Origin: an uncultured Mucilaginibacter sp.
GTDB taxonomy: Bacteria; Bacteroidota; Bacteroidia; Sphingobacteriales; Sphingobacteriaceae
Reading direction: 5' to 3'
Assembly (NCBI GenBank): GCA_963422535.1
Contig: OY730227.1
Location: 2,655,582 to 2,719,581 of the forward strand
Length of the DNA stretch: 64,000 bases
In this document: positions 1-12,051 of the stretch, piece after piece
Position numbering within the stretch: the first letter of the stretch is position 1
How the letters are laid out: every line of letters begins with the position of its first letter
The notes under the pieces: model-generated
The model's input: only the letters and a program-made list of their open reading frames with translations
Told to the model about the DNA's origin: nothing
The model's database searches: none
Translations under genes and position numbers: made by a program

Positions 1-984
1 AGCAAGGGCAGTTGTTTTATAGGGGGCAATGTATCGCATGGTTCGGGTGGTCCACGAGTGGTAAAATATGGTACTATTCGAGAGTATATATTGAATTTGG
101 AAGTAGTGTTGCCCAATGGCGAAGTAATTTGGACGGGGGCTAATACCCTCAAATACGCATCGGGCTATAACCTTACCCAACTGATGATAGGCTCGGAAGG
201 TACGTTAGGCATCATTACCAAAATTGTAACCAAACTGATACCCAAGCCTACGCACGATGCCTTGCTGCTGGCATCGTTTACAAGCAACGAACAAGCTTCT
301 GCTGCTGTGTCGGCTATATTTAGAGCGGGCATAGTGCCATCGGCATTAGAGTTTATGGAGCGGAAAGCATTAGAATGGGTAATAAAATTTGATGGTATCA
401 ATTTTGATTTGAAAGCGGATATCGAAGCATTTTTATTGATAGAAGTAGATGGTACTAATACCGATGTGATATTTGCCGATTGTGAGAAAATAAACCATGT
501 GTTAGAACAGTTTGGCTGTAAGGATGTGCTATTTGCTGATACCGCCGCACAAAAAGACGAATTATGGCGATTACGACGCACCATGGCAGTATCGGTAAAA
601 TCGAACTCGGTGTATAAAGAAGAAGATACCGTAGTGCCTCGTGCCAAACTACCTCAACTGATAAAAGGAATAAAAGAGATAGGCGCAATGTATGGCTTCG
701 AGTCTATTTGCTATGGGCACGCAGGCGACGGCAATGTGCACGTGAATATTATAAAAGGCAATATGAGCGATGATGATTGGAATAATAAACTGAAAGAGGG
801 CATCAGCAAAATATTTGAACTAACGGTAGCCTTAGGCGGCACGCTATCAGGCGAGCATGGCATAGGTTTGGTGCAAAAAGAGTTTATGCCTATAAAATAC
901 ACAAATATCCATTTCGAGCTATGGCGAGGTATAAAACGCACTTTTGATGCCAATGGCATACTCAACCCAGGGAAGATGTTTTAG
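1..984 (+). CDS. FAD-linked oxidase, GlcD/D-lactate dehydrogenase family (5'-truncated by the window edge)
   Basis: Frame is open from base 1 (SKGSCFIGGNVSHGSGGPRVVKYG). Motifs GSEGTLGIIT, GHAGDGNVH and SGEHGIG, and the C-terminal FDANGILNPGK, match the FAD-oxidase_C family. Confidence 0.9.
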   Translation, partial: SKGSCFIGGNVSHGSGGPRVVKYGTIREYILNLEVVLPNGEVIWTGANTLKYASGYNLTQLMIGSEGTLGIITKIVTKLIPKPTHDALLLASFTSNEQASAAVSAIFRAGIVPSALEFMERKALEWVIKFDGINFDLKADIEAFLLIEVDGTNTDVIFADCEKINHVLEQFGCKDVLFADTAAQKDELWRLRRTMAVSVKSNSVYKEEDTVVPRAKLPQLIKGIKEIGAMYGFESICYGHAGDGNVHVNIIKGNMSDDDWNNKLKEGISKIFELTVALGGTLSGEHGIGLVQKEFMPIKYTNIHFELWRGIKRTFDANGILNPGKMF

Positions 985-1021
985 ATGTAGTGTGAGTGTT
1001 TTTTGGTACCTGTATTTTTTG

Positions 1022-1029
1022 TACTTTTG
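1022..1029 (+). promoter_or_regulatory. Bacteroidetes sigma -7 box (TACTTTTG) upstream of the 469-aa gene
   Basis: Matches the TAnnTTTG consensus, 36 nt before the ATG at 1066. Confidence 0.5.
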
Positions 1030-1065
1030 TAATACTTTAAATAACCTGATTTAAAGTAGATTACT

Positions 1066-2475
1066 ATGGATAAATTAATTGAATTACCTACAAAAGACCT
1101 TCTTGATAAATTTGGTTTAGGATCTCATAAACCCGGTTCAGGGAGTGCCGCAGCTTTGCAGGCATTGTTAGCAGTACAACTAATACGGACGGTTATAAAG
1201 TTGAGTAAAGAAAGGGATAATTATAGAAAATATCTATCTAATTTTAATAGAATTGAAGAGGACTTAGATAATCGAATTTATCCAGAATTACTGAATTTTT
1301 TTCAACTTGATTCTGAACAATTTGACAAGGTTATAAAATTGCGTAAGGAACGTTACGATGAGAAAAATGACATTAAGAAAAAGAAAATAATAGAAAATTT
1401 AGATGATGCTTTATTGCAGGCTACAAAGACACCAATAGCAATAGCAAAACTATCAGTAGATTTAGCAGAACATGCTTTATTTATATTTGATAATGGTTTT
1501 AAGTCTGCAAGAGGGGATTCAGGTGTTGCCCTAAATAATGCAATGTCCACAGTTTCAGGCTGTCTTTCAATTATTAATCTAAATTTATTAACATTAGGCG
1601 ATGATAAGCAGGTTGATGTGATTAGATTAGAATCAGTCCAGTTAAGGGATTCATTCCAAGAAATGATTATTAAGACCACCGAACGACTTGATGTGCTTGA
1701 AAAGGAAGTGCAGCGAAATCAAACATATAATGAAGATTTAAAGAGCCTTTTACTGGAAAATGGGGAACGTTCAGATTTGTCATATGATGAAATTGAAAAA
1801 CTTGTGCGTCGGGTACAAAATTTTCTATGGAGGTATTCTGATAAAATTTTTAAAAAAACGCCCCCCGAAAATATGATTGACCTGCTTAATCCTGAAATTG
1901 TTTTAACCAAAATTTTAGGCTATCAATTTAAAAAGTCAAGAAATTTAGGTAATCATGGTACAGAAGGTGGGACTTTTGAAATAGCAGGAATTATTGATAA
2001 ATCTCAAAAGCAGGTTACTATTTCTCAACATTTTCCTAAAGAGAGCCAAAATTTCACAGCAGCACATGAATTGGGGCACGTATTTTTACATCGACAAACT
2101 GTATTACATAGAGATAGAGCAATAGATGGGGCGAGTATGGGTATTTCTAGAGAGCCGATAGAACTTCAAGCAGATAAATTTGCCACGTTTTTTTTACTTC
2201 CCAAAAAAAGAGTCAAACTTATTTTCAGGGATTTATTTCTATCTGATAAATTTATTATAAATGAAGATACAGTATTTGCATTGACAGGCGATAGAGTAAG
2301 TACGTTTAGAAGGAAATATAGAAATTTACGAGAATTATCTAGATTTATTGCAGGTGCTGGGTCTTATGATGGAAATCAATTTAATTCCATGTCGAAAATA
2401 TTTAATGTATCTGTAGAAACAATGGCTATTCGTTTGGAAGAGCTTGAATTAGTAGAGTTTCCTTCAATCGAGTAA
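1066..2475 (+). CDS. Cyclodeaminase/cyclohydrolase (FTCD_C-like) domain fused to an ImmA/IrrE (Peptidase_M78) zinc metalloprotease domain
   Basis: N-terminus: LLDKFG..KPGSGSAAAL (P23), LDSEQF and ARGDSGVA, resembling FTCD_C/FchA. C-terminus: FTAAHELGH (H334-E335-H338), IELQADKFATFFLLP (E366) and FNVSVETMAIRLEELEL, typical of IrrE. Confidence 0.8.
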   Translation: MDKLIELPTKDLLDKFGLGSHKPGSGSAAALQALLAVQLIRTVIKLSKERDNYRKYLSNFNRIEEDLDNRIYPELLNFFQLDSEQFDKVIKLRKERYDEKNDIKKKKIIENLDDALLQATKTPIAIAKLSVDLAEHALFIFDNGFKSARGDSGVALNNAMSTVSGCLSIINLNLLTLGDDKQVDVIRLESVQLRDSFQEMIIKTTERLDVLEKEVQRNQTYNEDLKSLLLENGERSDLSYDEIEKLVRRVQNFLWRYSDKIFKKTPPENMIDLLNPEIVLTKILGYQFKKSRNLGNHGTEGGTFEIAGIIDKSQKQVTISQHFPKESQNFTAAHELGHVFLHRQTVLHRDRAIDGASMGISREPIELQADKFATFFLLPKKRVKLIFRDLFLSDKFIINEDTVFALTGDRVSTFRRKYRNLRELSRFIAGAGSYDGNQFNSMSKIFNVSVETMAIRLEELELVEFPSIE

Positions 2476-2554
2476 TAAATTCTCAGTATAAAAGAAAATA
2501 TGGTGTTGTATAGCTTGCTAAGCAAAATAATCTATCAAACATTTCATCTCCACC

Positions 2555-2597
2555 CTACCGCATCATCCCTTTATTGGCTGCATGATAATGTTTTTTT
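2555..2597 (-). repeat. Degenerate direct-repeat copy of the last ~14 codons of cutC (att-like, distal copy)
   Basis: ctaccgcatcatccctttattggctgcatg-ataatgtttttt aligns with ttaccgcatcatcccctcattggctgcgcggataatatttttt (7903-7946). By-eye count is about 36 of 42 identical positions, with one 1-nt gap. Confidence 0.8.
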
Positions 2598-2606
2598 AAT
2601 TTTTAA

Positions 2607-2641
2607 AGGCGGTGATTTAAAACCAATCTCATCAACCGCCT
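2607..2641. terminator. Hairpin downstream of the 142-aa gene (possible terminator)
   Basis: aggcggtgat ... atcaaccgcct stem with one bulge; U-tract is weak. Confidence 0.4.
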
Positions 2642-2649
2642 CGCAAAAC

Positions 2650-3078
2650 CTATAATTCAAAATATTGGTTAAACTTATTTAAATGCACTTTGATGCCATC
2701 TAATGATTGTGCTGCTTTGCCCAACTTTGTAGTATGTGCAAACTTTGTTACCTGCCCCATAAACGGTTCGAGCCATTTATGCAAAGCTTGGTGATCAGCT
2801 CCCTTCATTTTGCATTCTTTTATCATTTTATTTAAGCCCGCTTGCAAATCGCTGGCTGTTTTATGGTAGGCGTTTAAAGATTTGTCTTTGCCAGTGTTAA
2901 ACGCTTGCACAATTTCCTGTAAGTGTTTAACATTGTTATTGGTACTGTTGTCAACCTTCCATTTCGCCCCTTTGTTTAGGGTCAACATTTCTGATGATGT
3001 TTGATAAGCAAACGCGCTTGCGTTATTTACAAGTAGTACACAGGCTATTAAATGGAGTGTTATAAGTAGTTTTTTCAT
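2650..3078 (-). CDS. Secreted/periplasmic hypothetical protein of the type found in Bacteroidetes heavy-metal clusters
   Basis: Signal peptide (NNASA), LTLNKGAKWKV motif and IKECKMKGADHQALHKWL. Confidence 0.7.
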   Translation of the reverse strand: MKKLLITLHLIACVLLVNNASAFAYQTSSEMLTLNKGAKWKVDNSTNNNVKHLQEIVQAFNTGKDKSLNAYHKTASDLQAGLNKMIKECKMKGADHQALHKWLEPFMGQVTKFAHTTKLGKAAQSLDGIKVHLNKFNQYFEL

Positions 3079-3308
3079 TACGACTGATTTAGTATTTGTT
3101 TAAAGAGGCAAAATAGCTACTTTTTTATTATCCCTCTCAATTGCGGTTTTTTATGACGATTTTATGAAATAAAAAAACAAGACGAAATGTCACTTTCGAG
3201 GCAATTTTATTTTTTGTTATACTACATGTATTTTTACACACATTATTTTTATTAGTGTATGATTATATAAATTTATCCAACTCAACGTTTTATTAGCATT
3301 CATGTAGC

Positions 3309-3341
3309 GAATTTTATAACTTTTGAGCACAATTGTATAAA
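3309..3341 (+). promoter_or_regulatory. Tandem direct repeat with 21-bp period (candidate AraC-family operator)
   Basis: AATTTTATAAC (3310-3320) and AATTGTATAAA (3331-3341) lie just upstream of the -7 box at 3362. Confidence 0.4.
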
Positions 3342-3361
3342 TAGAGTCCTTAATTATTGTA

Positions 3362-3369
3362 TATCTTTG
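3362..3369 (+). promoter_or_regulatory. Bacteroidetes -7 promoter box TATCTTTG for the copper operon
   Basis: Exact TAnnTTTG match, 7 nt before the ATG at 3377. Confidence 0.55.
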
Positions 3370-3376
3370 TAATTAC

Positions 3377-3763
3377 ATGAAGAAGGTAGCAATCTTTAGC
3401 ATAATGATATTTTATCTGTTTCTTTCAACAGATGTATATGCGTGCTTTATGCATTGTTCAGCAAAATATCTTATTGCGAGTACGCATAAACTTAGTTCCC
3501 GTTATCAAAAAAAACATTGTACAAAAAGCAAGGCGTGTGATTGCTGCAAAAACCATGGTAGTTTTTCAATCAAAGAAAACATTAAGCCAGGTTTTGTTTT
3601 TCAATTTTCAAAAATTGTATTCATTAATACCAAGACATTATTGTCAGGATTTCTTTTAGATGTCCCAACAATAAACAATGAGATTTATTGGGCCGAAAAT
3701 CATAGCCCGCCTAGTAAATCAGGCAGAATGTTATTAACAGAAATCTGCTCCCTTCAAATTTGA
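3377..3763 (+). CDS. HYC_CC_PP-like Cys/His-rich protein
   Basis: Hydrophobic N-terminus, MHC, CDCCK and NHSPP motifs in the order typical of the family; first gene of the metal operon. Confidence 0.65.
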   Translation: MKKVAIFSIMIFYLFLSTDVYACFMHCSAKYLIASTHKLSSRYQKKHCTKSKACDCCKNHGSFSIKENIKPGFVFQFSKIVFINTKTLLSGFLLDVPTINNEIYWAENHSPPSKSGRMLLTEICSLQI

Positions 3764-3833
3764 TTTTTAAGCTGTAATAGTATCTTTTGCTGATTTAGAT
3801 ATTTATATCTTTTCGTTTAACAGCTTAATTAAA

Positions 3834-4403
3834 ATGCCACTATACATAAAAAATATGGTTTGCGACCGTTGCAAAATGGTAGTAAAGCAACAGTTGGAAT
3901 ATTTAGGTTTTCAAGTGTCCGAAATTGGTTTGGGTATTGCCACAGTAGTTTCGCAACCCGATAGTAATCAATTGCTTGAAATATCATCTTCGTTGAAATT
4001 ATACGGCTTCGAACTCGTCGACAATGAAAAAGATCGGATAGTTCAACGTATTAAAGATTTGATTGTTGAAATAGTACATCATTCCGATTTAATGGATGGA
4101 GGTATTAATATTTCGGAATATCTTTCACAAAACTTGAATAAGCGTTATACTTATTTAAGTAAACTGTTTTCCGGTGTCGAGGGTTTTACGGTGGAAAAAT
4201 TCATTATTCAGCAAAAAATAGAAAAAGTAAAAGAATTGCTTGAATATGGTGAGCTTAGTCTTAATGAGATAGCTTGGAAAATGGGCTATAGCAGTAGTGC
4301 TCACTTAGCAACGCAATTCAAAAATATAACTGGAGTAACAACCAGTCAGTTTAAGTTATCAGAACAAGGTGGAAGAGTACCACTTGACAAAATTAAATCA
4401 TAA
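3834..4403 (+). CDS. AraC-family regulator with an N-terminal HMA-like metal-binding domain
   Basis: N-terminal IKNMVCDRC (CxxC); C-terminal AraC HTH (LNEIAWKMGYSSSAHLATQFKNITG). Confidence 0.9.
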   Translation: MPLYIKNMVCDRCKMVVKQQLEYLGFQVSEIGLGIATVVSQPDSNQLLEISSSLKLYGFELVDNEKDRIVQRIKDLIVEIVHHSDLMDGGINISEYLSQNLNKRYTYLSKLFSGVEGFTVEKFIIQQKIEKVKELLEYGELSLNEIAWKMGYSSSAHLATQFKNITGVTTSQFKLSEQGGRVPLDKIKS

Positions 4404-4414
4404 TAAATAACATC

Positions 4415-4915
4415 ATGAAAAAAATATTTTTATTGGTTGCAATAATTGCAACTGTAGTTGTAAAATCAACTTTTGCTTTGAGTATCTCTGTATCATCGCT
4501 TTCATCATTACTTTCGTCATACTACGATATAAAAAATGCGTTAATCAATTCGGACGTTAATACAGCAGCTTCAAAGGCAGGCTATTTTGTGAAAGAAATA
4601 AATAGCATTGATGTGAAGTCATTATCCGAATCGGATACGAAAGTTTTTATGGAGTTTCAAGAGAAATTGATTTTTGATGCGCGACATATTTCTGAAAACA
4701 AGGACATAGCCCATCAACGGGAGCATTTTGCCAATTTTTCAGCCAATTTTTACAAACTTGCAAAAGCTATTAAACTAACCAATCAGGCTATTTATTACGA
4801 CTATTGCCCGATGCAAAAAGGCTATTGGTTATCTGCTGATGCAGTAATTAAGAACCCTTATTTTGGGAAACAAATGTTAACCTGTGGTAAGATTACTGAA
4901 ACGCTGAACAAATAA
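4415..4915 (+). CDS. DUF3347-domain periplasmic metal-binding protein
   Basis: Signal peptide; CPMQKGYWLS...IKNPYFGKQMLTCG. Confidence 0.85.
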   Translation: MKKIFLLVAIIATVVVKSTFALSISVSSLSSLLSSYYDIKNALINSDVNTAASKAGYFVKEINSIDVKSLSESDTKVFMEFQEKLIFDARHISENKDIAHQREHFANFSANFYKLAKAIKLTNQAIYYDYCPMQKGYWLSADAVIKNPYFGKQMLTCGKITETLNK

Positions 4916-4929
4916 TAAAGAAATTACAA

Positions 4930-4955
4930 CAACGTGAGTTTTAGTGCTCACGTTG
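4930..4955. other. Intergenic hairpin (9-bp stem; possible mRNA stability or termination element)
   Basis: CAACGTGAG-N8-CTCACGTTG. Confidence 0.5.
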
Positions 4956-4979
4956 CTAAATTGTATTAAAATAAACATC

Positions 4980-5218
4980 ATGAGAAATATAATTATTATT
5001 GCAGTAATTGCAATAGCTATACTAAGCTGTAACAACAGCATAAATTAGAAACTATTAGCAATGCTTTTACCGAAGGAACTATGCCATTTTCTTCTTATTT
5101 GCTAATACGCCCTAATACAGCTCTTTCGCCAAACGAAAAAGCAATAATAAACAATTGGATTAAAGAGATAAAAAGCAATCTACGAGATGCTTTATCAGCA
5201 AAAGTCTATTTATATTAA
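4980..5218 (+). pseudogene. Chimeric remnant: 5' end of a lipoprotein gene joined out of frame to the 3' end of a Haem_bd (cytochrome c-like haem-binding domain) gene
   Basis: 4980-5048 reads MRNIIIIAVIAIAILSCNNSIN* (lipobox ILSC). In another frame from 5042: KLETISNAFTEGTMPFSSYLLIRPNTALSPNEKAIINNWIKEIK, matching the Haem_bd C-terminal MPxxSY...LS..W pattern. Confidence 0.65.
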
Positions 5219-5228
5219 CATTATTGAA

Positions 5229-7628
5229 ATGAAAAAGATAACAATAATTACTTGCTTTTTACTTTTAGAGGCTACAACATTTGCTCAAATGCAAATGACT
5301 ATGCCAATGAAAAAAGTAAAATCGAAAACAAATACAACAACAAAACAAGCCGAAAAAAAAGAAGATGTAATGCCTGAAAAGGCAAATATAACTACTACGA
5401 CTAATTCAACCAATCAAAAGCTAGTCTCATTAACACCTGCTACAAAAAGCGGAAAAATCATCAGGTATGATTTGTATGTTAAAGATACCACTGTAAACTT
5501 TACTGGAAAATCAAAACCTGCAATTGCGGTAAATGGCTCTATTCCTATGCCTACACTTTATTTTACAGAAGGGGATACAGCAGAAATTTATGTGCATAAT
5601 ACGCTTAAAGAAAGAACAATAATTCATTGGCATGGGCTTATTTTGCCTAATCAATACGATGGTGTTCCATTTTTAACTACTCAGCCTATAGAGCGGGGTA
5701 AAACGCACCTTTTTAAATTTCCAATTGTTCAAAATGGTACATATTGGTATCACTCACATCAAGAGTTGCAAGAGCAATCAGGGATGTACGGTTCTTTAAT
5801 ATTTCATAAACGCAATGAGTCCGAGATGAAAGAATTTCCGATGATATTAAGCGATTGGACAGATACGAATCCGAAAGAGGTTAATAGAAGTCTTCATAAT
5901 CAAACAGATTGGTTTAGTATTCAAAAAGGTACAACACAAAGTTATGCCGAAGCCATTAGGTCAGGTAATTTCAAAACGAAACTAGCTAATGAATGGAAGC
6001 GAATGACAGCAATGGATGTGAGCGATGTGGCTTATGATAGATTTTTGATTAATGGAAAAACCAATAATGAGCAACCTCAATTTAAAGCTGGTGATAAAGT
6101 AAAACTAAGGATAGCTAATGGAGGTTCATCAACCTATTTTTGGCTTACTTGGGCTGGCGGTAAAATGACAGTTATTGCAAACGATGGAGAGGATGTTGAG
6201 CCAATTGAGGTTGATCGCTTGATTGTGGCTGTTGCCGAAACTTATGATATAATTGTTACAATTCCTAAAGATGGTAGATATGAGTTGTTGGCTACACCAG
6301 AAGACAGAACAAGTTCGGCTTCGTTGTGGTTAGGCGCAGGCACTAAAATAAGCGCACCTCATTTACCTAAGCTAAAATATTTTGCTGGAATGAAGATGAT
6401 GAATGATATGATGAAGATGAATGGCGATATGAAAGAAATGGATAGTATGCAGATGGCAAATCAAGTAATGGATATGAATACAGTAATGTATCCCGAAATT
6501 TCTGGGTCAGAAAGTGCAGATGTCAAAATGAGTGATACTACGCACAATACGATGAAAGATAATATGAGTGGGATGGACATGGGAAGTATGACGCCAGATA
6601 TAGTTACGCTCAATTATGGGATGTTAAAAGCTGTTAAAAAAACCACACTACCCAACGCGCCTACAAAGAACTTATATTTTGAGCTTACTGGTAACATGAA
6701 TAGGTATGTATGGACAATTAATAATAAAACTGTTTCAGAAGCAGATAAGATATTGATTCGGAAAGGCGAAAATGTGCGCATTGTGTTATACAACAACACA
6801 ATGATGCGTCACCCGATGCATTTGCATGGGCATTTCTTTCGGGTATTAAACGGGCAAGGCGAGTATTCGCCATTAAAAAACACATTGGATATAATGCCTA
6901 TGGAACGTGATACCATAGAGTTTGCTGCTACCGAAAGCGGTGATTGGTTTTTCCATTGCCATATTTTATATCATATGATGAGCGGGATGGGGCGCGTTTT
7001 TCAATACGAGAATTCGCCAATTAACCCCGAAATACTCGACCAAGTAAAGGCATTTAAAATGGTTAAACGCGAAGATCGTATGCTGCATTTTATGGCAAAA
7101 GTAGGTTTAGAAAGTAATGGCACCGATGGAGAGTTCATGCTAGCTAATACTCGCTGGAAAGTTTCTTCATTATGGCATCTTGGCTTAAGTAGTAAAGAAG
7201 GATATGAAAGTGAAACGATGATAGGTCGATATATTGGCAAAATGCAGTGGCTATATCCTTATATTGGTTTCGACTATCATTTTAAAACAAAGAATCTTAA
7301 CGAAAAAAATATTTTTGGTAGTGATTATAAAACACTGTTTGGACAAATCAGCAATAAAGAGAGTAGGCGAACGGTAGTAGCTGGTTTAGCCTATACATTG
7401 CCATTGTTGTTTGTAGCCGATACACGTATTGATGGTGATGGCAAAGTGCGAGTTCAATTGGGGCGAGAAGATATTCCTGTATCAAAACGTCTTCGATTTA
7501 ACCTAATGGTGAATACGGATAAAGAATATGCAGCTGGTTTTCGTTATATAATAACAAAATACTTTTCCTTATCAACACATTATGATAGCGATATGGGATT
7601 GGGCGGGGGATTAACAATAGTTTATTAA
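5229..7628 (+). CDS. Multicopper oxidase (CopA/PcoA family) with a Met-rich insert and a C-terminal beta-barrel-like extension
   Basis: Cu ligands HWHG, WYHSH, HPMHLHGH and HCHILYHM; Met-rich segment. Likely start is 5229 (signal peptide MKKIT...TFA-Q); the ORF track starts at 5187. Confidence 0.93.
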   Translation: MKKITIITCFLLLEATTFAQMQMTMPMKKVKSKTNTTTKQAEKKEDVMPEKANITTTTNSTNQKLVSLTPATKSGKIIRYDLYVKDTTVNFTGKSKPAIAVNGSIPMPTLYFTEGDTAEIYVHNTLKERTIIHWHGLILPNQYDGVPFLTTQPIERGKTHLFKFPIVQNGTYWYHSHQELQEQSGMYGSLIFHKRNESEMKEFPMILSDWTDTNPKEVNRSLHNQTDWFSIQKGTTQSYAEAIRSGNFKTKLANEWKRMTAMDVSDVAYDRFLINGKTNNEQPQFKAGDKVKLRIANGGSSTYFWLTWAGGKMTVIANDGEDVEPIEVDRLIVAVAETYDIIVTIPKDGRYELLATPEDRTSSASLWLGAGTKISAPHLPKLKYFAGMKMMNDMMKMNGDMKEMDSMQMANQVMDMNTVMYPEISGSESADVKMSDTTHNTMKDNMSGMDMGSMTPDIVTLNYGMLKAVKKTTLPNAPTKNLYFELTGNMNRYVWTINNKTVSEADKILIRKGENVRIVLYNNTMMRHPMHLHGHFFRVLNGQGEYSPLKNTLDIMPMERDTIEFAATESGDWFFHCHILYHMMSGMGRVFQYENSPINPEILDQVKAFKMVKREDRMLHFMAKVGLESNGTDGEFMLANTRWKVSSLWHLGLSSKEGYESETMIGRYIGKMQWLYPYIGFDYHFKTKNLNEKNIFGSDYKTLFGQISNKESRRTVVAGLAYTLPLLFVADTRIDGDGKVRVQLGREDIPVSKRLRFNLMVNTDKEYAAGFRYIITKYFSLSTHYDSDMGLGGGLTIVY

Positions 7629-7821
7629 TCAGTAAGTATTATTGCAATTAATTTTTCCTATATGTAAGAGAGATTATATACTTATACTTTAATGTGGGAA
7701 TGCAGCGCTATCGATACGCCAACTGGACAAATAGAGCATGGATTTTAGAAATTCAGTTTATTGATAGAGTGAATAATATTGGTGGCTTTTTTGAGTAATT
7801 ATTGCCCACTAATGTTCACTA

Positions 7822-7874
7822 AATTGCTGTAACTTCCTAAAATAGATTGACTATTTTAGGAAGTTACAGCAATT
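7822..7874. terminator. Perfect 24-bp inverted repeat between the convergent MCO and cutC genes
   Basis: aattgctgtaacttcctaaaatag-attga-ctattttaggaagttacagcaatt. Confidence 0.65.
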
Positions 7875-7902
7875 ATGATTAAAAGTAGGGTTTATTTAAA
7901 GC

Positions 7903-8673
7903 TTACCGCATCATCCCCTCATTGGCTGCGCGGATAATATTTTTTACCATTTCGGTTTTGGTTACTTCAATGCTAAACTCATCTACATAGTTGAGCCCCA
8001 TTTTTATATGGTCGTTTTGGTATTGCATCACGCTGCTTACACGCCCTTTGGCCGATGAGTGTATCTGGGTAGCTTTGGTAAAGTGCACCAAATCGGATAC
8101 ATTGCGCTCTTTTATACCACTGCCTGGCATAATGATAATACGGTTGCCCGCTTTTTCTATCAGATGGATTAAATTGGGCGTACCTTCAATGGCTGTGCTT
8201 TTTCCGCCAGATGTTAGCAGACGCTCGCAACCAATTTCAATCACATCTTCTAACGCTTGGCTCAAATCAGGACACATATCAAACGCACGATGGAAGGTAA
8301 CACCAAGTCCAGCTTTTTTAGCCATTTGTGTCAACTCTTTACAACGTTTTTTATCGATAGTGCCATCCGAGTTCAAAATGCCTATTACAATGCCGTCGCA
8401 TTTAGCATCAATGCAATTTTGTACATCGGCTTTCATTATCTCAAACTCGGTATCGGTATATAAAAAATCGCCACCACGTGGGCGAATAAGCACATATAAT
8501 TGGATGTGTAATAATTTACGGGCTACCAGTATTTGCCCATACGAAGGTGTAGTGCCGCCTTCGTTTAAGTTTTCGCATAGTTCAACACGTATAGCACCGC
8601 CTTCTTGTGCTGCTAACGCCGAGGTAACAGAATTGGCGCAAACTTCGAGTTGGATAGTAGTATAATTATTCAT
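7903..8673 (-). CDS. cutC: CutC family protein (TIM barrel)
   Basis: LEVCANSV..A..AQEGGAIRVELC, EGGTTPSYG, IRPRGGDFLY, TFHRAFD and LLTSGG. Likely start is 8673; the ORF track gives 8694. Confidence 0.93.
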   Translation of the reverse strand: MNNYTTIQLEVCANSVTSALAAQEGGAIRVELCENLNEGGTTPSYGQILVARKLLHIQLYVLIRPRGGDFLYTDTEFEIMKADVQNCIDAKCDGIVIGILNSDGTIDKKRCKELTQMAKKAGLGVTFHRAFDMCPDLSQALEDVIEIGCERLLTSGGKSTAIEGTPNLIHLIEKAGNRIIIMPGSGIKERNVSDLVHFTKATQIHSSAKGRVSSVMQYQNDHIKMGLNYVDEFSIEVTKTEMVKNIIRAANEGMMR

Positions 8674-8730
8674 GGTTGATGATAGATAGTTCAATTTTGC
8701 TACTCATGGTAGGTAGCGTTTGTGCCAAAA

Positions 8731-9738
8731 TTAATAAGCACTTTTTCCTTTTACTAATTGTTCTTGGTTATCGGCAGTACACACAGCAAACGAAAAACCG
8801 CTTTGAATAGCATAAGCACCGTACTCGCCTTTTTTGTTGATAGCCAAAAAGCCCACTTGTATTTGTTTGGCTGTTTCGGGTTTCTTTTTGATAATTCTTC
8901 TTACAGCTTCTCTGCAAGCATCTTCGGGCGATAAGCCTTGACGCATCAACTCTACCACCAAAAAGCTACCCACATTGCGTATCACTTCTTCGCCCACACC
9001 TGTTGATGTTGCTCCGCCTACTTCATTATCTACATATAAGCCTGCGCCTATGATAGGGCTATCGCCTACACGCCCGTGCAGTTTAAAAGCCATGCCACTC
9101 GTAGTACACGCGCCCGATATATTGCCTTTGGCATCAATAGCCAGCATACCTATGGTGTCGTGATTGTATTGATTACCCGGAACGTGTTGTTTGTTTTCGA
9201 TATTCATTACAGGGCTATATTTGGCAGTTTTGAGCCACTCTTTCCATGCCTTTTCCGATTCCTCACACAAAAGTTTTTCGCGCTTAAAACCTTGCTCTAC
9301 AGCAAACTGACTTGCTCCTTCGCCAACTAACATTACGTGCGGCGTTTTCTCCATCACCAAACGTGCTACTGATATAGGATGTGCAATATCTTCCATTGCC
9401 GCCACTGAGCCACAATTGCCAAACTCGTCCATAATACAGGCATCGAGTGTTACGTGCCCATCTCTATCAGGATAGCCAGCTCTACCCACGGTATGGTTTT
9501 TCATATCCGCTTCGGGTATTCTCACTCCAGCTTCTACCGCATCCACAGCCCGCCCGCCTTTTTTCAGCACTTCCCAAGCACCTTTATTGGCTGCTATGCC
9601 AAAATCCCAAGTAGAAATTACAATAGGAAGATTGCCACTCGGTTTTAGTGCTAATGTTTTGGCTACTGCCGAGCGCGACAAAGCCGCAAGTGATGCACCT
9701 GCAGCTGATATTTTGATAAATTTGCGGCGATTATACAT
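8731..9738 (-). CDS. N4-(beta-N-acetylglucosaminyl)-L-asparaginase (glycosylasparaginase, Ntn hydrolase) with a Tat signal
   Basis: RRKFIK twin-arginine motif; autocleavage site HD/TIG; GRVGDSPIIGAG and ATSTGVGE. Confidence 0.92.
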   Translation of the reverse strand: MYNRRKFIKISAAGASLAALSRSAVAKTLALKPSGNLPIVISTWDFGIAANKGAWEVLKKGGRAVDAVEAGVRIPEADMKNHTVGRAGYPDRDGHVTLDACIMDEFGNCGSVAAMEDIAHPISVARLVMEKTPHVMLVGEGASQFAVEQGFKREKLLCEESEKAWKEWLKTAKYSPVMNIENKQHVPGNQYNHDTIGMLAIDAKGNISGACTTSGMAFKLHGRVGDSPIIGAGLYVDNEVGGATSTGVGEEVIRNVGSFLVVELMRQGLSPEDACREAVRRIIKKKPETAKQIQVGFLAINKKGEYGAYAIQSGFSFAVCTADNQEQLVKGKSAY

Positions 9739-9783
9739 GACCGCTAATATAGAAAGTTTGAACCGATATTAACAGTGTGTTAA

Positions 9784-10212
9784 CTACTTTCCTGCGGTTT
9801 GCATTAATGGGCGAACTTCTACACTTCCACCAAACTCAAATATGGGGCATTTACTCGCTATGGCTTTAGCATCGTCTATATCATTAGCCTTAATAATCAA
9901 TATCGAACTCATCAATTCGCCATTGGCTACATAAGCTCCTTTTTTAACGGTTTTGTCAGTACCACTTATGGTTTCGCCGTCATTAGTAGGGCGATACCCG
10001 CTTACTATATTGCCGTTTTTTGCCAAATTGCCCATGTACTCCATCCATTTTTTAATATTGGCTTGCATGGCTTCAGTTGATGGCTGCGGTGCTGCAATAT
10101 TGTAGCGAATAACAAATATGTATTGCGATTGTGTAGGTGCTTTTGCTTGGTCTTGGGCAAATAATGCAGTCCCTGCAAATAAAAGTAATGTTAAAAGAAT
10201 GATTTTTTTCAT
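9784..10212 (-). CDS. YCII-related domain protein with a signal peptide
   Basis: LFA-Q signal; C-terminal DAKAIASKCP..GGSVEVRP typical of the YciI/DGPF family. Confidence 0.8.
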   Translation of the reverse strand: MKKIILLTLLLFAGTALFAQDQAKAPTQSQYIFVIRYNIAAPQPSTEAMQANIKKWMEYMGNLAKNGNIVSGYRPTNDGETISGTDKTVKKGAYVANGELMSSILIIKANDIDDAKAIASKCPIFEFGGSVEVRPLMQTAGK

Positions 10213-10457
10213 GACGTTTCTTCTAAGTTTTCGTTGTCGGTTTTTTCAGCAGCTATTGTTTCGCATTGCTCCAAATCGCGTGCAAATATTTTCAACTTAA
10301 TGCCGCCTATAGCTTGGTTATAGGGTGCCATTACGCCCATGTTTTGGTCGGTTATAAAGCAGTGGATACCCCTATCTTCAAACTTGGTGCGCATAATTTG
10401 CGCTTGCATTGGGTCGTAGTAAGTAGCAAATGTGATGATATCGTCTTCTTTTTGCAT
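10209..10457 (-). CDS. DUF2007 domain protein
   Basis: A.IMRTKFEDRGIHCFITDQN...GGIKLKI pattern; 4-nt overlap with the downstream gene. Confidence 0.8.
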   Translation of the reverse strand: MQKEDDIITFATYYDPMQAQIMRTKFEDRGIHCFITDQNMGVMAPYNQAIGGIKLKIFARDLEQCETIAAEKTDNENLEETS

Positions 10458-10531
10458 AGCTAATAAATAATTTACGCTTGATAGTAATCTTATCCAAAAA
10501 TGAGAAATTGTTTTGGTTAATTTGAATAATT

Positions 10532-11479
10532 ATGAATCGGATTGATCGCATCGCAGCTATACTCATTCAACTTCAATCGCGAAGGGTGGTAAAAGCGAGT
10601 GATATTGCCGAACGGTTTGGTATCAGCTTACGCACCGTTTACCGTGATATTAAAACCTTAGAAGAAGCAGGCGTGCCATTAATAGGCGAGGCAGGAGTAG
10701 GGTATGCTATTATGGATGGCTATCGATTGCCGCCCGTGATGTTTACACGCGATGAGGCAGCAGCTTTTTTGACCGCCGAGAAGCTGATGGAGAAACTAAC
10801 CGACCCTTTATCTGATGAAAACTATAAATCGGCGATGTATAAAATTCGCTCAGTATTGCGCGCCACCGATAAAGATTTTTTAGAAAACATCGATGGGCAT
10901 ATCGAAGTTTTTAAAAGTAGGCGTACATCGGGGAGTAATCAGCTTCATCTTAATCCATTACAATTGATTTTGAATAGCATTGCACACAAAAATGTAGTGG
11001 AGATAAGTTACTTTGCCTCATCAACCCAAACCGAAAGCAAACGCTGTATTGAACCAGTAGGTGTTTTTTATCAAGATAATTATTGGCACTTGATAGCTTG
11101 GTGCAGGTTGCGAAATGATTATCGCGATTTTAGGCTCGACCGTATTTTGAATATTACTCTTACTGCTGAATATTTTAGCACACAACACCCCAATCTAAAG
11201 GAGTTTATTAAAAAAGAAGCGAAAGAGAAAAACCTGCAAACCGTAATCATACGTGTCGAGAAAAAGGCATTGCCCTATATCAATGAGCAGAAGTATTACA
11301 CCGGTTTCGTATCAGAACAAGAGATGGGCGACGAGGTAGAAATGACTTTCTTAACCGAGTTTATAGAGGGTTTTGTGCGCTGGTTGCTGATGTATGGCGA
11401 TATGGCAAAAGTGATTAGTCCTGATAGTTTAAGAGTGCGGGTTAAAGAATTGGCGAGTATTATCTATCAAAAACATTAA
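10532..11479 (+). CDS. YafY-family HTH_11-WYL-WCX transcriptional regulator
   Basis: MNRIDRIAAIL, SLRTVYRDIKTL, GVGY and WHLIAWCRLRNDYRDFRLDRI (WYL domain). Confidence 0.93.
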   Translation: MNRIDRIAAILIQLQSRRVVKASDIAERFGISLRTVYRDIKTLEEAGVPLIGEAGVGYAIMDGYRLPPVMFTRDEAAAFLTAEKLMEKLTDPLSDENYKSAMYKIRSVLRATDKDFLENIDGHIEVFKSRRTSGSNQLHLNPLQLILNSIAHKNVVEISYFASSTQTESKRCIEPVGVFYQDNYWHLIAWCRLRNDYRDFRLDRILNITLTAEYFSTQHPNLKEFIKKEAKEKNLQTVIIRVEKKALPYINEQKYYTGFVSEQEMGDEVEMTFLTEFIEGFVRWLLMYGDMAKVISPDSLRVRVKELASIIYQKH

Positions 11480-11494
11480 TAATTTATTTCCTGC

Positions 11495-11510
11495 TGACAT
11501 AGGGTTGTCA
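11495..11510. promoter_or_regulatory. Palindrome TGACA-N6-TGTCA upstream of the SRPBCC gene (candidate WYL-regulator operator)
   Basis: TGACATAGGGTTGTCA lies 15 nt after the WYL stop and 42 nt before the next ATG. Confidence 0.55.
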
Positions 11511-11552
11511 TTACGAGGTGGTTGATTTGTGTAAATAATCAAATCAATCAAT

Positions 11553-11972
11553 ATGGAAATCTTAAACATTTCAATAAACTTAAATGCCAGTATGGGCAAA
11601 GTTTGGCAAGCATTAACAGATGCAAGCATAGTAAAGCAATATTTTTTCGGCACTAATTTAACTTCAGATTGGAAAGTAGGCAACCCCATAGTTTTTGAAG
11701 GAGAGTGGGAGGGAAGGGCATATAAAGACCAAGGCATTATCCTCGAAATTGAAACAGGGAAGTATGTAAAGTATAGCTATTTCAGCTCCATGTCGGGCAT
11801 GGAGAATAAGCCCGAAAATTATGTTAATATCAGTTATCATTTATCCGAAAAAGATGGCGCAACGCAATTAATAATCACTCAAGATGGTATTAAAGATAAA
11901 GCATTGAAAGAGCATGCCGAACAAACTTGGTTGTATGTATTAGGTAAAATGAAGGAGCTAATAGAAGAATAA
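11553..11972 (+). CDS. SRPBCC/AHSA1 (START-like) domain protein
   Basis: KVWQALTD....QYFFG..SDWKVG..EGEWEG; TWLYVLGKMKELIE. Confidence 0.88.
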   Translation: MEILNISINLNASMGKVWQALTDASIVKQYFFGTNLTSDWKVGNPIVFEGEWEGRAYKDQGIILEIETGKYVKYSYFSSMSGMENKPENYVNISYHLSEKDGATQLIITQDGIKDKALKEHAEQTWLYVLGKMKELIEE

Positions 11973-12051
11973 TCTATTTAAACTATTAATATATATAAAT
12001 GGTATAATAATTTGATTAATAATTAACTGTAAATCAATATAACTAAAGGTA

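What the first reader, a model, noticed from the sequence alone, without database searches (positions are those of the whole stretch)
2555..7946. Copper cassette inserted at the 3' end of cutC, marked by a duplicated cutC terminus
Seen: the last ~14 codons of cutC (KNIIRAANEGMMR*, 7903-7946) recur 5.3 kb downstream at 2555-2597 as KNII-(1-nt gap)-AANKGMMR*. Similarity stops exactly at the stop codon (TAA vs TAG). Everything between the copies is metal-related cargo, and there is no integrase. Established: tyrosine-integrase elements that target the 3' end of a gene restore it and leave the displaced end as a distal direct repeat. Inference: this is an old, immobilised islet using cutC as its attachment site, a target I have not seen described. 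A copper island landing in a gene annotated 'copper homeostasis' may be selection or coincidence.
Basis: partly seen in the sequence, partly recalled or inferred. Interest (0 to 1): 0.75.

Follow-up and report, generated by a model that had tools for sequence, protein, structure and literature searches.

The report
Displaced cutC end beside copper islet
A short copy of the end of the cutC gene really does sit 5.3 kb away, on the far side of a small integrase-less patch of accessory copper genes. It is an old recombination scar of a kind this Mucilaginibacter genome carries at several genes, and nothing shows that cutC is a dedicated docking site for a mobile element.

Summary
The last 14 codons of cutC (7903-7944, minus strand) recur at 2555-2597 (36/42 identical, one 1-nt gap), and this sequence occurs only twice in the 3.12-Mb genome. 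Similarity ends at the stop codon.

Between the copies lie a solitary accessory gene (orf142) and a copper module (Cys/His-rich orf128, AraC, DUF3347, CopA-type multicopper oxidase). That module sits at changing positions across Mucilaginibacter.

New findings:
- A second displaced gene end (M24 peptidase, 7721-7822) plus a perfect 24-bp hairpin lies at the cutC-proximal edge.
- Three more gene–insert–gene-end scars (argS, a Kir-like channel, a 150-aa gene) exist elsewhere in the genome, each around a single gene and with no integrase.
- Differences between copies fall mainly on third codon positions, so the remnants were once ends of working alleles.

No integrase or recombinase fragment lies in the cassette. 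The closest known relative is only about 75% identical, so no empty site can be found. In 19 congeners cutC abuts other genes and no integrase.

Best reading: an old Campbell-type insertion of DNA from a closely related lineage at the cutC 3' end, later eroded. The enzyme is unresolved. A decayed cutC-specific integrase element remains possible. The link to "copper homeostasis" looks coincidental.

The parts
1066..2475 (+). Left flank gene: FTCD_C + Peptidase_M78 (IrrE-like) fusion. It is itself accessory and low-GC.
   Evidence: Pfam. GC 32.6%. Found in 11 of 229 congeners, with different neighbours each time.
2555..2597 (-). Displaced copy of the cutC 3' end (KNII/AANKGMMR*), frameshifted and non-coding.
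2608..2640 (.). Hairpin terminator shared by orf142 and the FTCD_C/M78 gene.
   Evidence: -18.3 kcal/mol, z = -3.6, followed by a U/A tract.
2650..3078 (-). orf142: small secreted protein of unknown function, a solitary accessory gene.
   Evidence: No family match. Found in 28 of 229 congeners and never beside the other cassette genes.
3377..3763 (+). orf128: Cys/His-rich small protein that heads the copper module.
   Evidence: Translation. Homologues lie upstream of AraC/DUF3347/MCO in congeners. The precomputed Pfam label is DUF8199.
3834..4403 (+). AraC-family regulator of the module.
   Evidence: Co-located with the module in several congeners.
4415..4915 (+). DUF3347 protein.
   Evidence: Adjacent to the MCO in most congeners.
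5187..7628 (+). CopA-type multicopper oxidase, 813 aa. The last ~200 aa have no family match.
   Evidence: Three Cu-oxidase domains. TIGR01480 scores 412 bits, below its 479 cut-off. Single copy in the genome. Best homologue 76%.
7721..7822 (+). Displaced 3' end of an M24-peptidase gene (…NRAWILEIQFIDRVNNIGGFFE*LLPTNVH*). It runs to the position of the full gene's stop codon.
   Evidence: 83% over 87 nt (91.5% over 59 nt) to the end of the intact gene at G000 2975791-2976477, 312 kb away and in inverted orientation. tblastn E = 1e-11. 10 of 15 codon differences are synonymous.
7822..7874 (.). Perfect 24-bp inverted repeat with a 5-nt loop, between the M24 remnant and the cutC stop. Probably a bidirectional terminator.
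   Evidence: -35 to -37 kcal/mol, z about -10 to -11. One of 10 perfect hairpins of at least 20 bp in the genome. No other copy.
7903..7944 (-). Proximal repeat copy: the functional last 14 codons of cutC.
7903..8673 (-). cutC, intact, with a lineage-specific C-terminal GMMR extension.
   Evidence: The extension is absent from the 119 closest homologues but present in the remnant.
8731..9738 (-). Asparaginase_2 gene, the conserved upstream partner of cutC across the genus.

Best explanation
The 42-nt copy is the displaced original end of cutC. It was left when DNA from a closely related Mucilaginibacter lineage entered by a single reciprocal (Campbell-type, 'ends-in') crossover within the 3' part of cutC.

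The incoming DNA supplied the present last codons of cutC, the hairpin terminator behind them, and the end of an M24-peptidase gene that had been cutC's convergent neighbour (or a scar beside it) in the donor. The resident end stayed attached to its old flank, the FTCD_C/M78 gene.

The redundant material between the copies was then eroded, and replaced or complemented by accessory genes (orf142 and the orf128-AraC-DUF3347-multicopper-oxidase module). This happened in a genome under strong deletion pressure: 3.1 Mb against 2.5-8.4 Mb (mostly 4-8 Mb) for the genus.

Shown:
- the repeat and its uniqueness;
- the accessory nature and variable position of every gene between the repeat copies and of the left-flank gene;
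- the second scar;
- the absence of any recombinase;
- the selection signature in the differences between copies.

Inferred:
- the Campbell-type geometry;
- the donor;
- the order of events;
- that the crossover used general homologous recombination rather than a dedicated integrase. My split within the Campbell-type reading is roughly 55:45 in favour of homology-driven.

Today the segment is a fixed chromosomal islet that most plausibly gives copper tolerance through periplasmic Cu(I) oxidation under an AraC-type regulator.
For: - The repeat is real, unique and in direct orientation, bracketing low-GC DNA.
- Both copies share the GMMR tail, which none of 119 closest CutC homologues has, so both descend from this lineage or a very close one.
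- Across five scars (cutC, M24, argS, a Kir-like gene, a 150-aa gene), 24 of 38 substitutions are at third codon positions (p = 1.6e-4), with 20 synonymous against 12 non-synonymous codon changes. The remnants therefore diverged as parts of working genes, not as neutrally decaying local duplicates.
- The cutC-proximal side reads cutC end, 28 nt, hairpin, M24 gene end. That is the layout of a chromosomal junction of two convergent genes, not of an element's attP.
- The M24 remnant is closest to G000's own M24 gene.
- Remnants that run to the stop codon form a 3'-end-specific class: 7 from last-100-nt queries, of which 5 lie 0.1-5.3 kb downstream on the same strand (three with gene inserts, one a 117-nt tandem duplication, one cutC). 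First-100-nt queries gave no near-gene remnant. Three of these scars enclose single genes without an integrase.
- cutC and argS 3' ends are both synteny breakpoints relative to the genus.
- The copper module sits among different neighbours in all 14 congeners examined, and the MCO occurs at 65-70% identity in other families, so it moves horizontally.
Against: - A 42-nt homology is short for RecA-driven crossover. The model therefore needs a longer original duplication and later erosion down to 42 nt and about 100 nt next to functional neighbours. That erosion is plausible but not shown.
- The narrow length range of all scars (42-87 nt) and their restriction to 3' ends are also what att sites of integrase-borne elements look like.
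- No donor, intermediate or empty site is available.
- M24 is never next to cutC in the 25 congeners that carry it.
- For cutC alone the codon-position signal rests on 4 substitutions.
Confidence: 0.4

Rival explanations
1. This is a decayed site-specific integrative element: a CIME-like remnant of an ICE, IME or islet carried by a tyrosine recombinase. Its attP mimics the last 14 codons of cutC. The 42-nt copies are attL and attR, and the integrase and transfer genes have been deleted.
For: - Direct repeats of a gene's terminal codons that end at the stop codon, bracketing low-GC accessory DNA.
- The scar class is 3'-end specific and 42-87 nt long, as att sites in gene ends are.
- The genome holds 14 tyrosine-recombinase matches that could have acted in trans.
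- Integrase-less elements that keep attL and attR are a described end state (CIME; PMC5704250).
- The longest identical block is 14 nt (GGGATGATGCGGTA), at the very end of the gene, a possible crossover core.
Against: - No integrase or fragment lies in or beside the cassette.
- Four independent scars in this genome all lack one, and three enclose just one ordinary gene.
- No integrase homologue or cutC-end repeat lies downstream of cutC in 19 congeners.
- The core is absent from the genome and metagenome collections.
- An M24 gene end and a terminator lie directly next to the proximal copy, which looks like captured chromosomal DNA rather than an attP.
- No literature describes cutC as a target.
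Confidence: 0.3
2. An intragenomic rearrangement by-product. On this reading the cutC and M24 remnants are duplicated breakpoint ends of inversions, translocations or junction duplications during genome reduction. The accessory genes then landed in, or were carried to, the new gene-free junction. No foreign circle was involved.
For: - The ancestral convergent neighbour of cutC (c2) and its companions c3 and c7 now lie 242-266 kb away.
- The intact M24 gene lies 312 kb away in inverted orientation relative to its remnant.
- The genome holds a 117-nt tandem duplication of a convergent gene junction that creates exactly such outward-pointing end remnants (case E at G000 333.2-333.4 kb).
- The cumulative GC-skew slope flattens across 2.6-2.9 Mb.
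Against: - Third-position-biased divergence means the copies diverged as functional alleles, which a local duplication of a single-copy gene end cannot do.
- A simple junction duplication would put a full M24 gene and a second hairpin left of the cutC remnant. Instead an unrelated accessory gene is there, and the hairpin is single-copy.
- A single inversion explains the M24 pair but not the cutC pair, which is in direct orientation 5.3 kb apart.
Confidence: 0.2
3. Chance resemblance of an AT-rich intergenic stretch to the end of cutC.
For: The repeat is short (42 nt) and imperfect, and the region is AT-rich.
Against: - E = 2.7e-5 against the whole genome, and 0 of 100 shuffles match.
- It has the same strand and register through the stop codon, lies within 5.3 kb of the gene, and encodes the lineage-specific GMMR tail.
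- Four other scars of the same form exist in the genome.
Confidence: 0.02

Closest known systems
CIMEs (cis-mobilizable elements) and accretion at gene 3' ends, e.g. ICESt1-related elements at the fda 3' end in Streptococcus thermophilus (review PMC5704250; Pavlovic et al. 2004 cited there)
   Same: An integrase-less segment flanked by direct repeats that include the end of a protein-coding gene, with the gene kept intact. There is modular accretion of unrelated accessory genes next to it.
   Different: - No related functional element using the same site is known.
- The att nature of the repeats is unproven.
- The repeats are 14% diverged.
- A second, unrelated gene-end scar sits inside.
- The host is a Bacteroidota genome.
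Genomic islands integrated in protein-coding genes by dedicated integrases, e.g. the dusA-specific family (PMC4482086)
   Same: An island in a housekeeping-type gene, with the element restoring the interrupted end.
   Different: Those elements target the 5' end, always carry the integrase next to the junction, and recur at the same site in more than 200 genomes. Here there is no integrase and no recurrence in 19 congeners.
Campbell-type (single-crossover) integration of circular DNA by homologous recombination, as with suicide plasmids or F'/specialised-transduction-like captured chromosomal DNA (own knowledge)
   Same: It produces a direct duplication of the shared gene segment around the inserted DNA. 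One copy completes the gene and the other is displaced with the old flank. The incoming side carries donor chromosomal context (here a terminator and the neighbour's gene end).
   Different: Natural cases are rarely recognised. The surviving repeat is much shorter than efficient RecA substrates, so later erosion must be assumed.
Bacteroidota copper-resistance modules with a CopA-type multicopper oxidase and DUF3347
   Same: The gene order orf128-like / AraC / DUF3347 / MCO is shared with many Mucilaginibacter genomes at 62-78% protein identity.
   Different: Here the module is pared down to four genes. It lacks the P-type ATPase and efflux genes that flank it in several congeners, and it sits beside cutC, unlike in any of the 33 congener loci examined (19 cutC loci and 14 MCO loci).

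Membership tests
Tyrosine-integrase integrative element (ICE/IME/genomic island) | Integrase gene inside the element, next to one att site | tested here: not met
   The nearest PF00589 match is about 104 kb away. There is no recombinase fragment in 900-8000 by tblastn with all genome proteins.
Tyrosine-integrase integrative element (ICE/IME/genomic island) | Direct repeats (attL/attR) that include the target gene's end and keep the gene intact | tested here: met
   36/42 nt direct repeat ending at the stop codon. cutC is intact.
Tyrosine-integrase integrative element (ICE/IME/genomic island) | Empty site in relatives (target joined directly to the distal flank) | tested here: inconclusive
   In 19 congeners cutC is never joined to the FTCD_C/M78 flank. 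The closest relative of this lineage anywhere is only 75% identical in CutC. The only other assembly is 100% identical over 20.8 kb.
Tyrosine-integrase integrative element (ICE/IME/genomic island) | Recurrence of integrase-bearing elements at the same site in other genomes | tested here: not met
   No integrase homologue in the 16 kb downstream of cutC in 19 congeners. No self-repeat of their cutC ends. The core pattern is absent from genome contigs and metagenome contigs.
Tyrosine-integrase integrative element (ICE/IME/genomic island) | Excision to a circle with reconstitution of attB | not testable with these tools
CIME (cis-mobilizable element) | Has lost integration and transfer genes but keeps attL and attR | tested here: inconclusive
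   The lack of such genes and the presence of flanking repeats are shown. That the repeats are att sites of a site-specific system is not shown.
CIME (cis-mobilizable element) | Derived from, or related to, a functional element that uses the same att site | tested here: not met
   No such element was found in the congeners or collections searched.
CopA-type copper-resistance multicopper oxidase module | Three cupredoxin (Cu-oxidase) domains and similarity to the copper_res_A subfamily | tested here: met
   PF07732, PF00394 and PF07731 all match. TIGR01480 is the best NCBIfam match at 412 bits, below its 479-bit cut-off. Sources name homologues 'CopA family copper-resistance protein'.
CopA-type copper-resistance multicopper oxidase module | Copper-dependent phenotype or regulation | not testable with these tools
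   No expression or phenotype data are available.

The most novel reading that the evidence does not exclude
The cutC scar may be one instance of a lineage-wide, integrase-independent way of adding genes. On this reading, small cassettes (one to five genes) are inserted precisely at the 3' ends of resident genes (cutC, argS, a Kir-like channel gene, a 150-aa gene, formerly an M24 peptidase gene). Each brings a replacement for the last 14-30 codons and displaces the old end. This would be a cassette-insertion mechanism not yet described for Bacteroidota.
Probability: 0.1. Interest if true: 0.65.

Novelty: new member of a known kind. Interest (0 to 1): 0.3.

Why it matters
If it is simply a scar, it adds one documented case of how a reduced soil-type Bacteroidota genome acquired and kept a minimal copper-oxidase module. 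It also warns against reading a gene name ('copper homeostasis' CutC) as a functional link. In 33 congener loci the copper module and cutC are never neighbours, and cutC's conserved partner is an asparaginase.

The more useful point is methodological. Short gene-end remnants that run to the stop codon, and whose differences fall on third codon positions, mark places where DNA from a related lineage was spliced in. This genome has at least five. With closer relatives they would let one date and orient individual transfer events and separate integrase-driven from homology-driven insertion.

Tried and rejected
1. Empty-site search:
- Synteny was examined in 19 congeners plus 16-kb downstream regions. 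The relatives are too distant; they show a different ancestral neighbour (c2) that in G000 lies 242 kb away.
- The 5.8-billion-protein search found no CutC above 75% identity.
- The only other contig carrying the identical protein is 100% identical over 20.8 kb.
- Its record could not be searched further.

3. An extension of the repeat to about 85 nt is not significant.

4. A third cutC remnant left of the FTCD_C/M78 gene (the tandem-accretion prediction) was not found.

5. Terminal inverted repeats or a transposon-like structure of the cassette: none beyond chance-level short matches.

6. Repeat-family explanation: the 42-mer, the hairpin and the flanks are single-copy apart from the pairs reported.

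7. Rfam found no RNA family in 1-12000.

8. Symmetric inversion around ori/ter: the skew extremes are at 1.55 and 3.02 Mb and are not centred on the cutC-M24 interval.

9. M24 next to cutC, or the copper module next to M24, in congeners: not seen.

10. Gene-order empty site for the argS scar: downstream of argS is variable in all congeners, so it is uninformative.

11. Same scar class in about 600 kb of congener loci: none found, but only about one was expected.

12. One search was a mis-aimed query and added nothing.

Full report
**Setting**

The window is G000:C1:2655582-2719581 of a single-contig 3.12-Mb genome. Source names on the closest homologues place it in Mucilaginibacter.

The lineage is isolated. 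The best CutC homologue among 5.8 billion proteins is 75% identical and the best multicopper oxidase is 76%. The genus set of 229 species genomes ranges from about 2.5 to 8.4 Mb, mostly 4-8 Mb, so G000 is among the smallest.

A second public contig (ENA ERZ25068833, 2.94 Mb) carries the same CutC. It is 100% identical to G000 over 20.8 kb, with the same structure.

**The observation**

cutC (minus strand, 7903-8673, 256 aa, full-length PF03932) ends …VKNIIRAANEGMMR*. The sequence 2597-2555 on the same strand reads KNII, a 1-nt deletion, then AANKGMMR*. That is 36/42 identity with one gap, and similarity ends at the stop codon (TAA vs TAG).

The core pattern occurs twice in the window and never in 100 shuffles. 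Whole-genome BLAST with cutC finds only the gene and this fragment (E = 2.7e-5), and short-word BLAST finds no other copy. A weaker in-register match about 45 nt further upstream is not significant (p about 0.15).

**What lies between the copies**

Reading on the plus strand:
- orf142 (2650-3078, minus strand), a small secreted protein with no family match;
- orf128 (3377-3763), Cys/His-rich;
- an AraC-family regulator (3834-4403);
- a DUF3347 protein (4415-4915);
- an 813-aa CopA-type multicopper oxidase (5187-7628).

The block orf128/AraC/DUF3347/MCO recurs in the same order in many congeners at 62-78% protein identity. Its neighbours differ in all 14 loci examined, and it often lies inside larger metal islands with P-type ATPases and efflux genes. 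It is single-copy in G000.

orf142 occurs in 28 of 229 congeners and is never beside the other cassette genes. So 'all metal-related' holds for four of the five genes.

GC is 33.7% across 1000-7800, against 37.5% for the genome and 41-44% for the core genes either side. The low-GC patch includes the gene left of the remnant.

That gene is an FTCD_C + Peptidase_M78 fusion at 1066-2475. It is itself accessory, present in 11 of 229 genomes with different neighbours each time.

**A second scar**

First, 7721-7822 (plus strand) is the 3' end of an M24-peptidase gene. It is 83% identical over 87 nt (91.5% over 59 nt) to the end of the intact 228-aa gene at G000 2975791-2976477, and it runs to the position of that gene's stop codon. 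The intact gene lies 312 kb away in inverted orientation. The remnant matches G000's own gene better than any congener's. The M24 gene is accessory (25 of 229 genomes) and is never next to cutC there.

Second, 7822-7874 is a perfect 24-bp hairpin (-35 to -37 kcal/mol, z about -10 to -11). It is single-copy and one of ten perfect hairpins of at least 20 bp in the genome. Most plausibly it is a bidirectional terminator.

The cutC-proximal edge therefore reads cutC end, 28 nt, terminator, M24 gene end. That is the layout of a chromosomal junction between two convergent genes.

**No recombinase, no recurrence**

The genome has 14 PF00589 matches, the nearest about 104 kb away. tblastn of all G000 proteins against 900-8000 finds no recombinase or transposase fragment.

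In 19 congeners, the 16 kb downstream of cutC holds no homologue of G000's integrases and no repeat of their own cutC end. The core pattern is absent from the 185,579-species genome collection and from the metagenome contigs. I found no paper describing cutC as an attachment site.

**Synteny**

Asparaginase-cutC is conserved in all congeners examined. Downstream, 13 of 19 have a convergent ~940-aa gene (c2), followed in most by an HscA-like chaperone gene (c3) and others.

In G000 these genes lie 242-266 kb to the right, in scrambled order. Genes further out (c27, c28, c9, c14, c13) are still collinear on the left.

The cutC 3' end is therefore a synteny breakpoint, and the sequence left of the remnant is not the genus-level ancestral neighbour. 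At 60-75% identity, however, the relatives are too far away for a fair empty-site test.

**A class of scars**

I scanned the last 100 nt of 2,464 ORFs against the genome. Nine partial, low-copy matches fell in non-coding DNA. Seven run to the stop codon, and five lie 0.1-5.3 kb downstream on the same strand. The first 100 nt gave three distant weak matches and mid-gene segments gave two IS-related ones.

Besides cutC and M24, three have the same gene–insert–gene-end form:
- argS (G000 3029744-3031510; 61-nt remnant; 1.1-kb insert with an SDR gene);
- a Kir-like channel gene (114534-115508; 47-nt remnant; 1.4-kb insert with a lipoprotein gene);
- a 150-aa gene (2891105-2891557; 68-nt remnant; 1.8-kb insert with an NHL-repeat gene).

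In each case similarity ends within 0-4 nt of the stop codon, each copy has its own terminator, and no integrase is present. Downstream of argS is also variable across the genus.

Another case (333.2-333.4 kb) is a plain 117-nt tandem duplication of a convergent junction.

**Selection signature**

Over the in-frame parts of the five scars, 24 of 38 substitutions are at third codon positions (binomial p = 1.6e-4). Twenty codon differences are synonymous against 12 non-synonymous, including multi-nucleotide synonymous changes in the M24 remnant (CGT/AGA, CTA/TTG).

The remnants therefore diverged from the present gene ends while both were parts of working genes. They were disabled only later, by frameshifts or a nonsense codon. 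This argues against in-situ target-site or slippage duplications. It argues for juxtaposition of two alleles from related lineages.

The GMMR tail points the same way. It is shared by cutC and its remnant but absent from the 119 closest homologues, which places the other allele in a very close relative.

**Interpretation**

A single reciprocal crossover of circular (or ends-in) DNA at the 3' part of cutC accounts for:
- the direct repeat;
- the intact gene;
- the displaced end attached to a different flank;
- the abrupt loss of similarity at the stop codon.

What drove the crossover is not settled. I favour general homologous recombination with donor chromosomal DNA, followed by deletional erosion, for these reasons:
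- the incoming side carries a terminator and a neighbouring gene's end;
- both alleles are lineage-specific;
- four scars lack integrases;
- the genome is strongly reduced.

The scars are short, uniform in length and confined to 3' ends.

An intragenomic rearrangement origin fits the inverted M24 pair and the displaced ancestral neighbours. It fits poorly with the selection signature and with the direct cutC pair.

Chance is effectively excluded.

**The 'copper into copper-homeostasis gene' coincidence**

In 19 cutC loci and 14 MCO loci from congeners the two are never neighbours. cutC's conserved partner is an asparaginase. From my own knowledge, the copper phenotype originally ascribed to E. 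coli cutC has been attributed to the sRNA MicL encoded within it. I did not check this here. Coincidence is the economical reading.

**Verdict**

This is a new instance of a known kind of scar, of modest interest. The genome-wide class of gene-end scars is the part most worth following up.

Noticed in passing
window 7721-7874: The displaced 3' end of an M24-peptidase gene is followed by a perfect 24-bp hairpin, directly behind the cutC stop. The intact M24 gene is 312 kb away in inverted orientation.
   Followed up: yes
G000:C1 3028564-3031510, 114534-116996, 2889232-2891557 (outside the window): Three further gene–insert–gene-end scars (argS, a Kir-like channel gene, a 150-aa gene). Each encloses one accessory gene, none has an integrase, and similarity ends at the stop codon.
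   Followed up: partly
G000:C1 127011-127185, 152018-152191, 2949891-2949948 (outside the window): The last 58-175 nt of a GspF/PilC-like gene occur three times. Two copies bracket a 25-kb region with two tyrosine recombinases, IS fragments and very large ORFs. A 5.9-kb segment with the recombinase pair is repeated at 99.98% identity at 885003-890883.
   Followed up: no
G000:C1 333237-333402 (outside the window): A 117-nt tandem duplication of a convergent gene junction leaves outward-pointing remnants of both gene ends.
   Followed up: partly
window 1066-2475: The FTCD_C + IrrE-type M78 peptidase fusion gene is low-GC (32.6%). It is present in only 11 of 229 congeners and always solitary among different neighbours, the pattern of a mobile single-gene accessory or defence locus.
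   Followed up: partly
window 5187-7628 (residues ~610-813): The multicopper oxidase has a C-terminal extension of about 200 aa with no family match. Many homologues carry PF19335 or PF13473 metal-binding domains there instead.
   Followed up: no
whole genome G000: At 3.12 Mb this is among the smallest genomes of a genus where most run 4-8 Mb. It is an isolated lineage: the best CutC homologue is 75% identical and the best MCO 76%. Genes ancestrally next to cutC are scattered 242-266 kb away. A second public assembly of 2.94 Mb is identical over the 20.8 kb compared, so about 176 kb may differ elsewhere.
   Followed up: partly
window 7903-7917: CutC carries a lineage-specific four-residue C-terminal extension (GMMR), absent from the 119 closest homologues.
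   Followed up: yes
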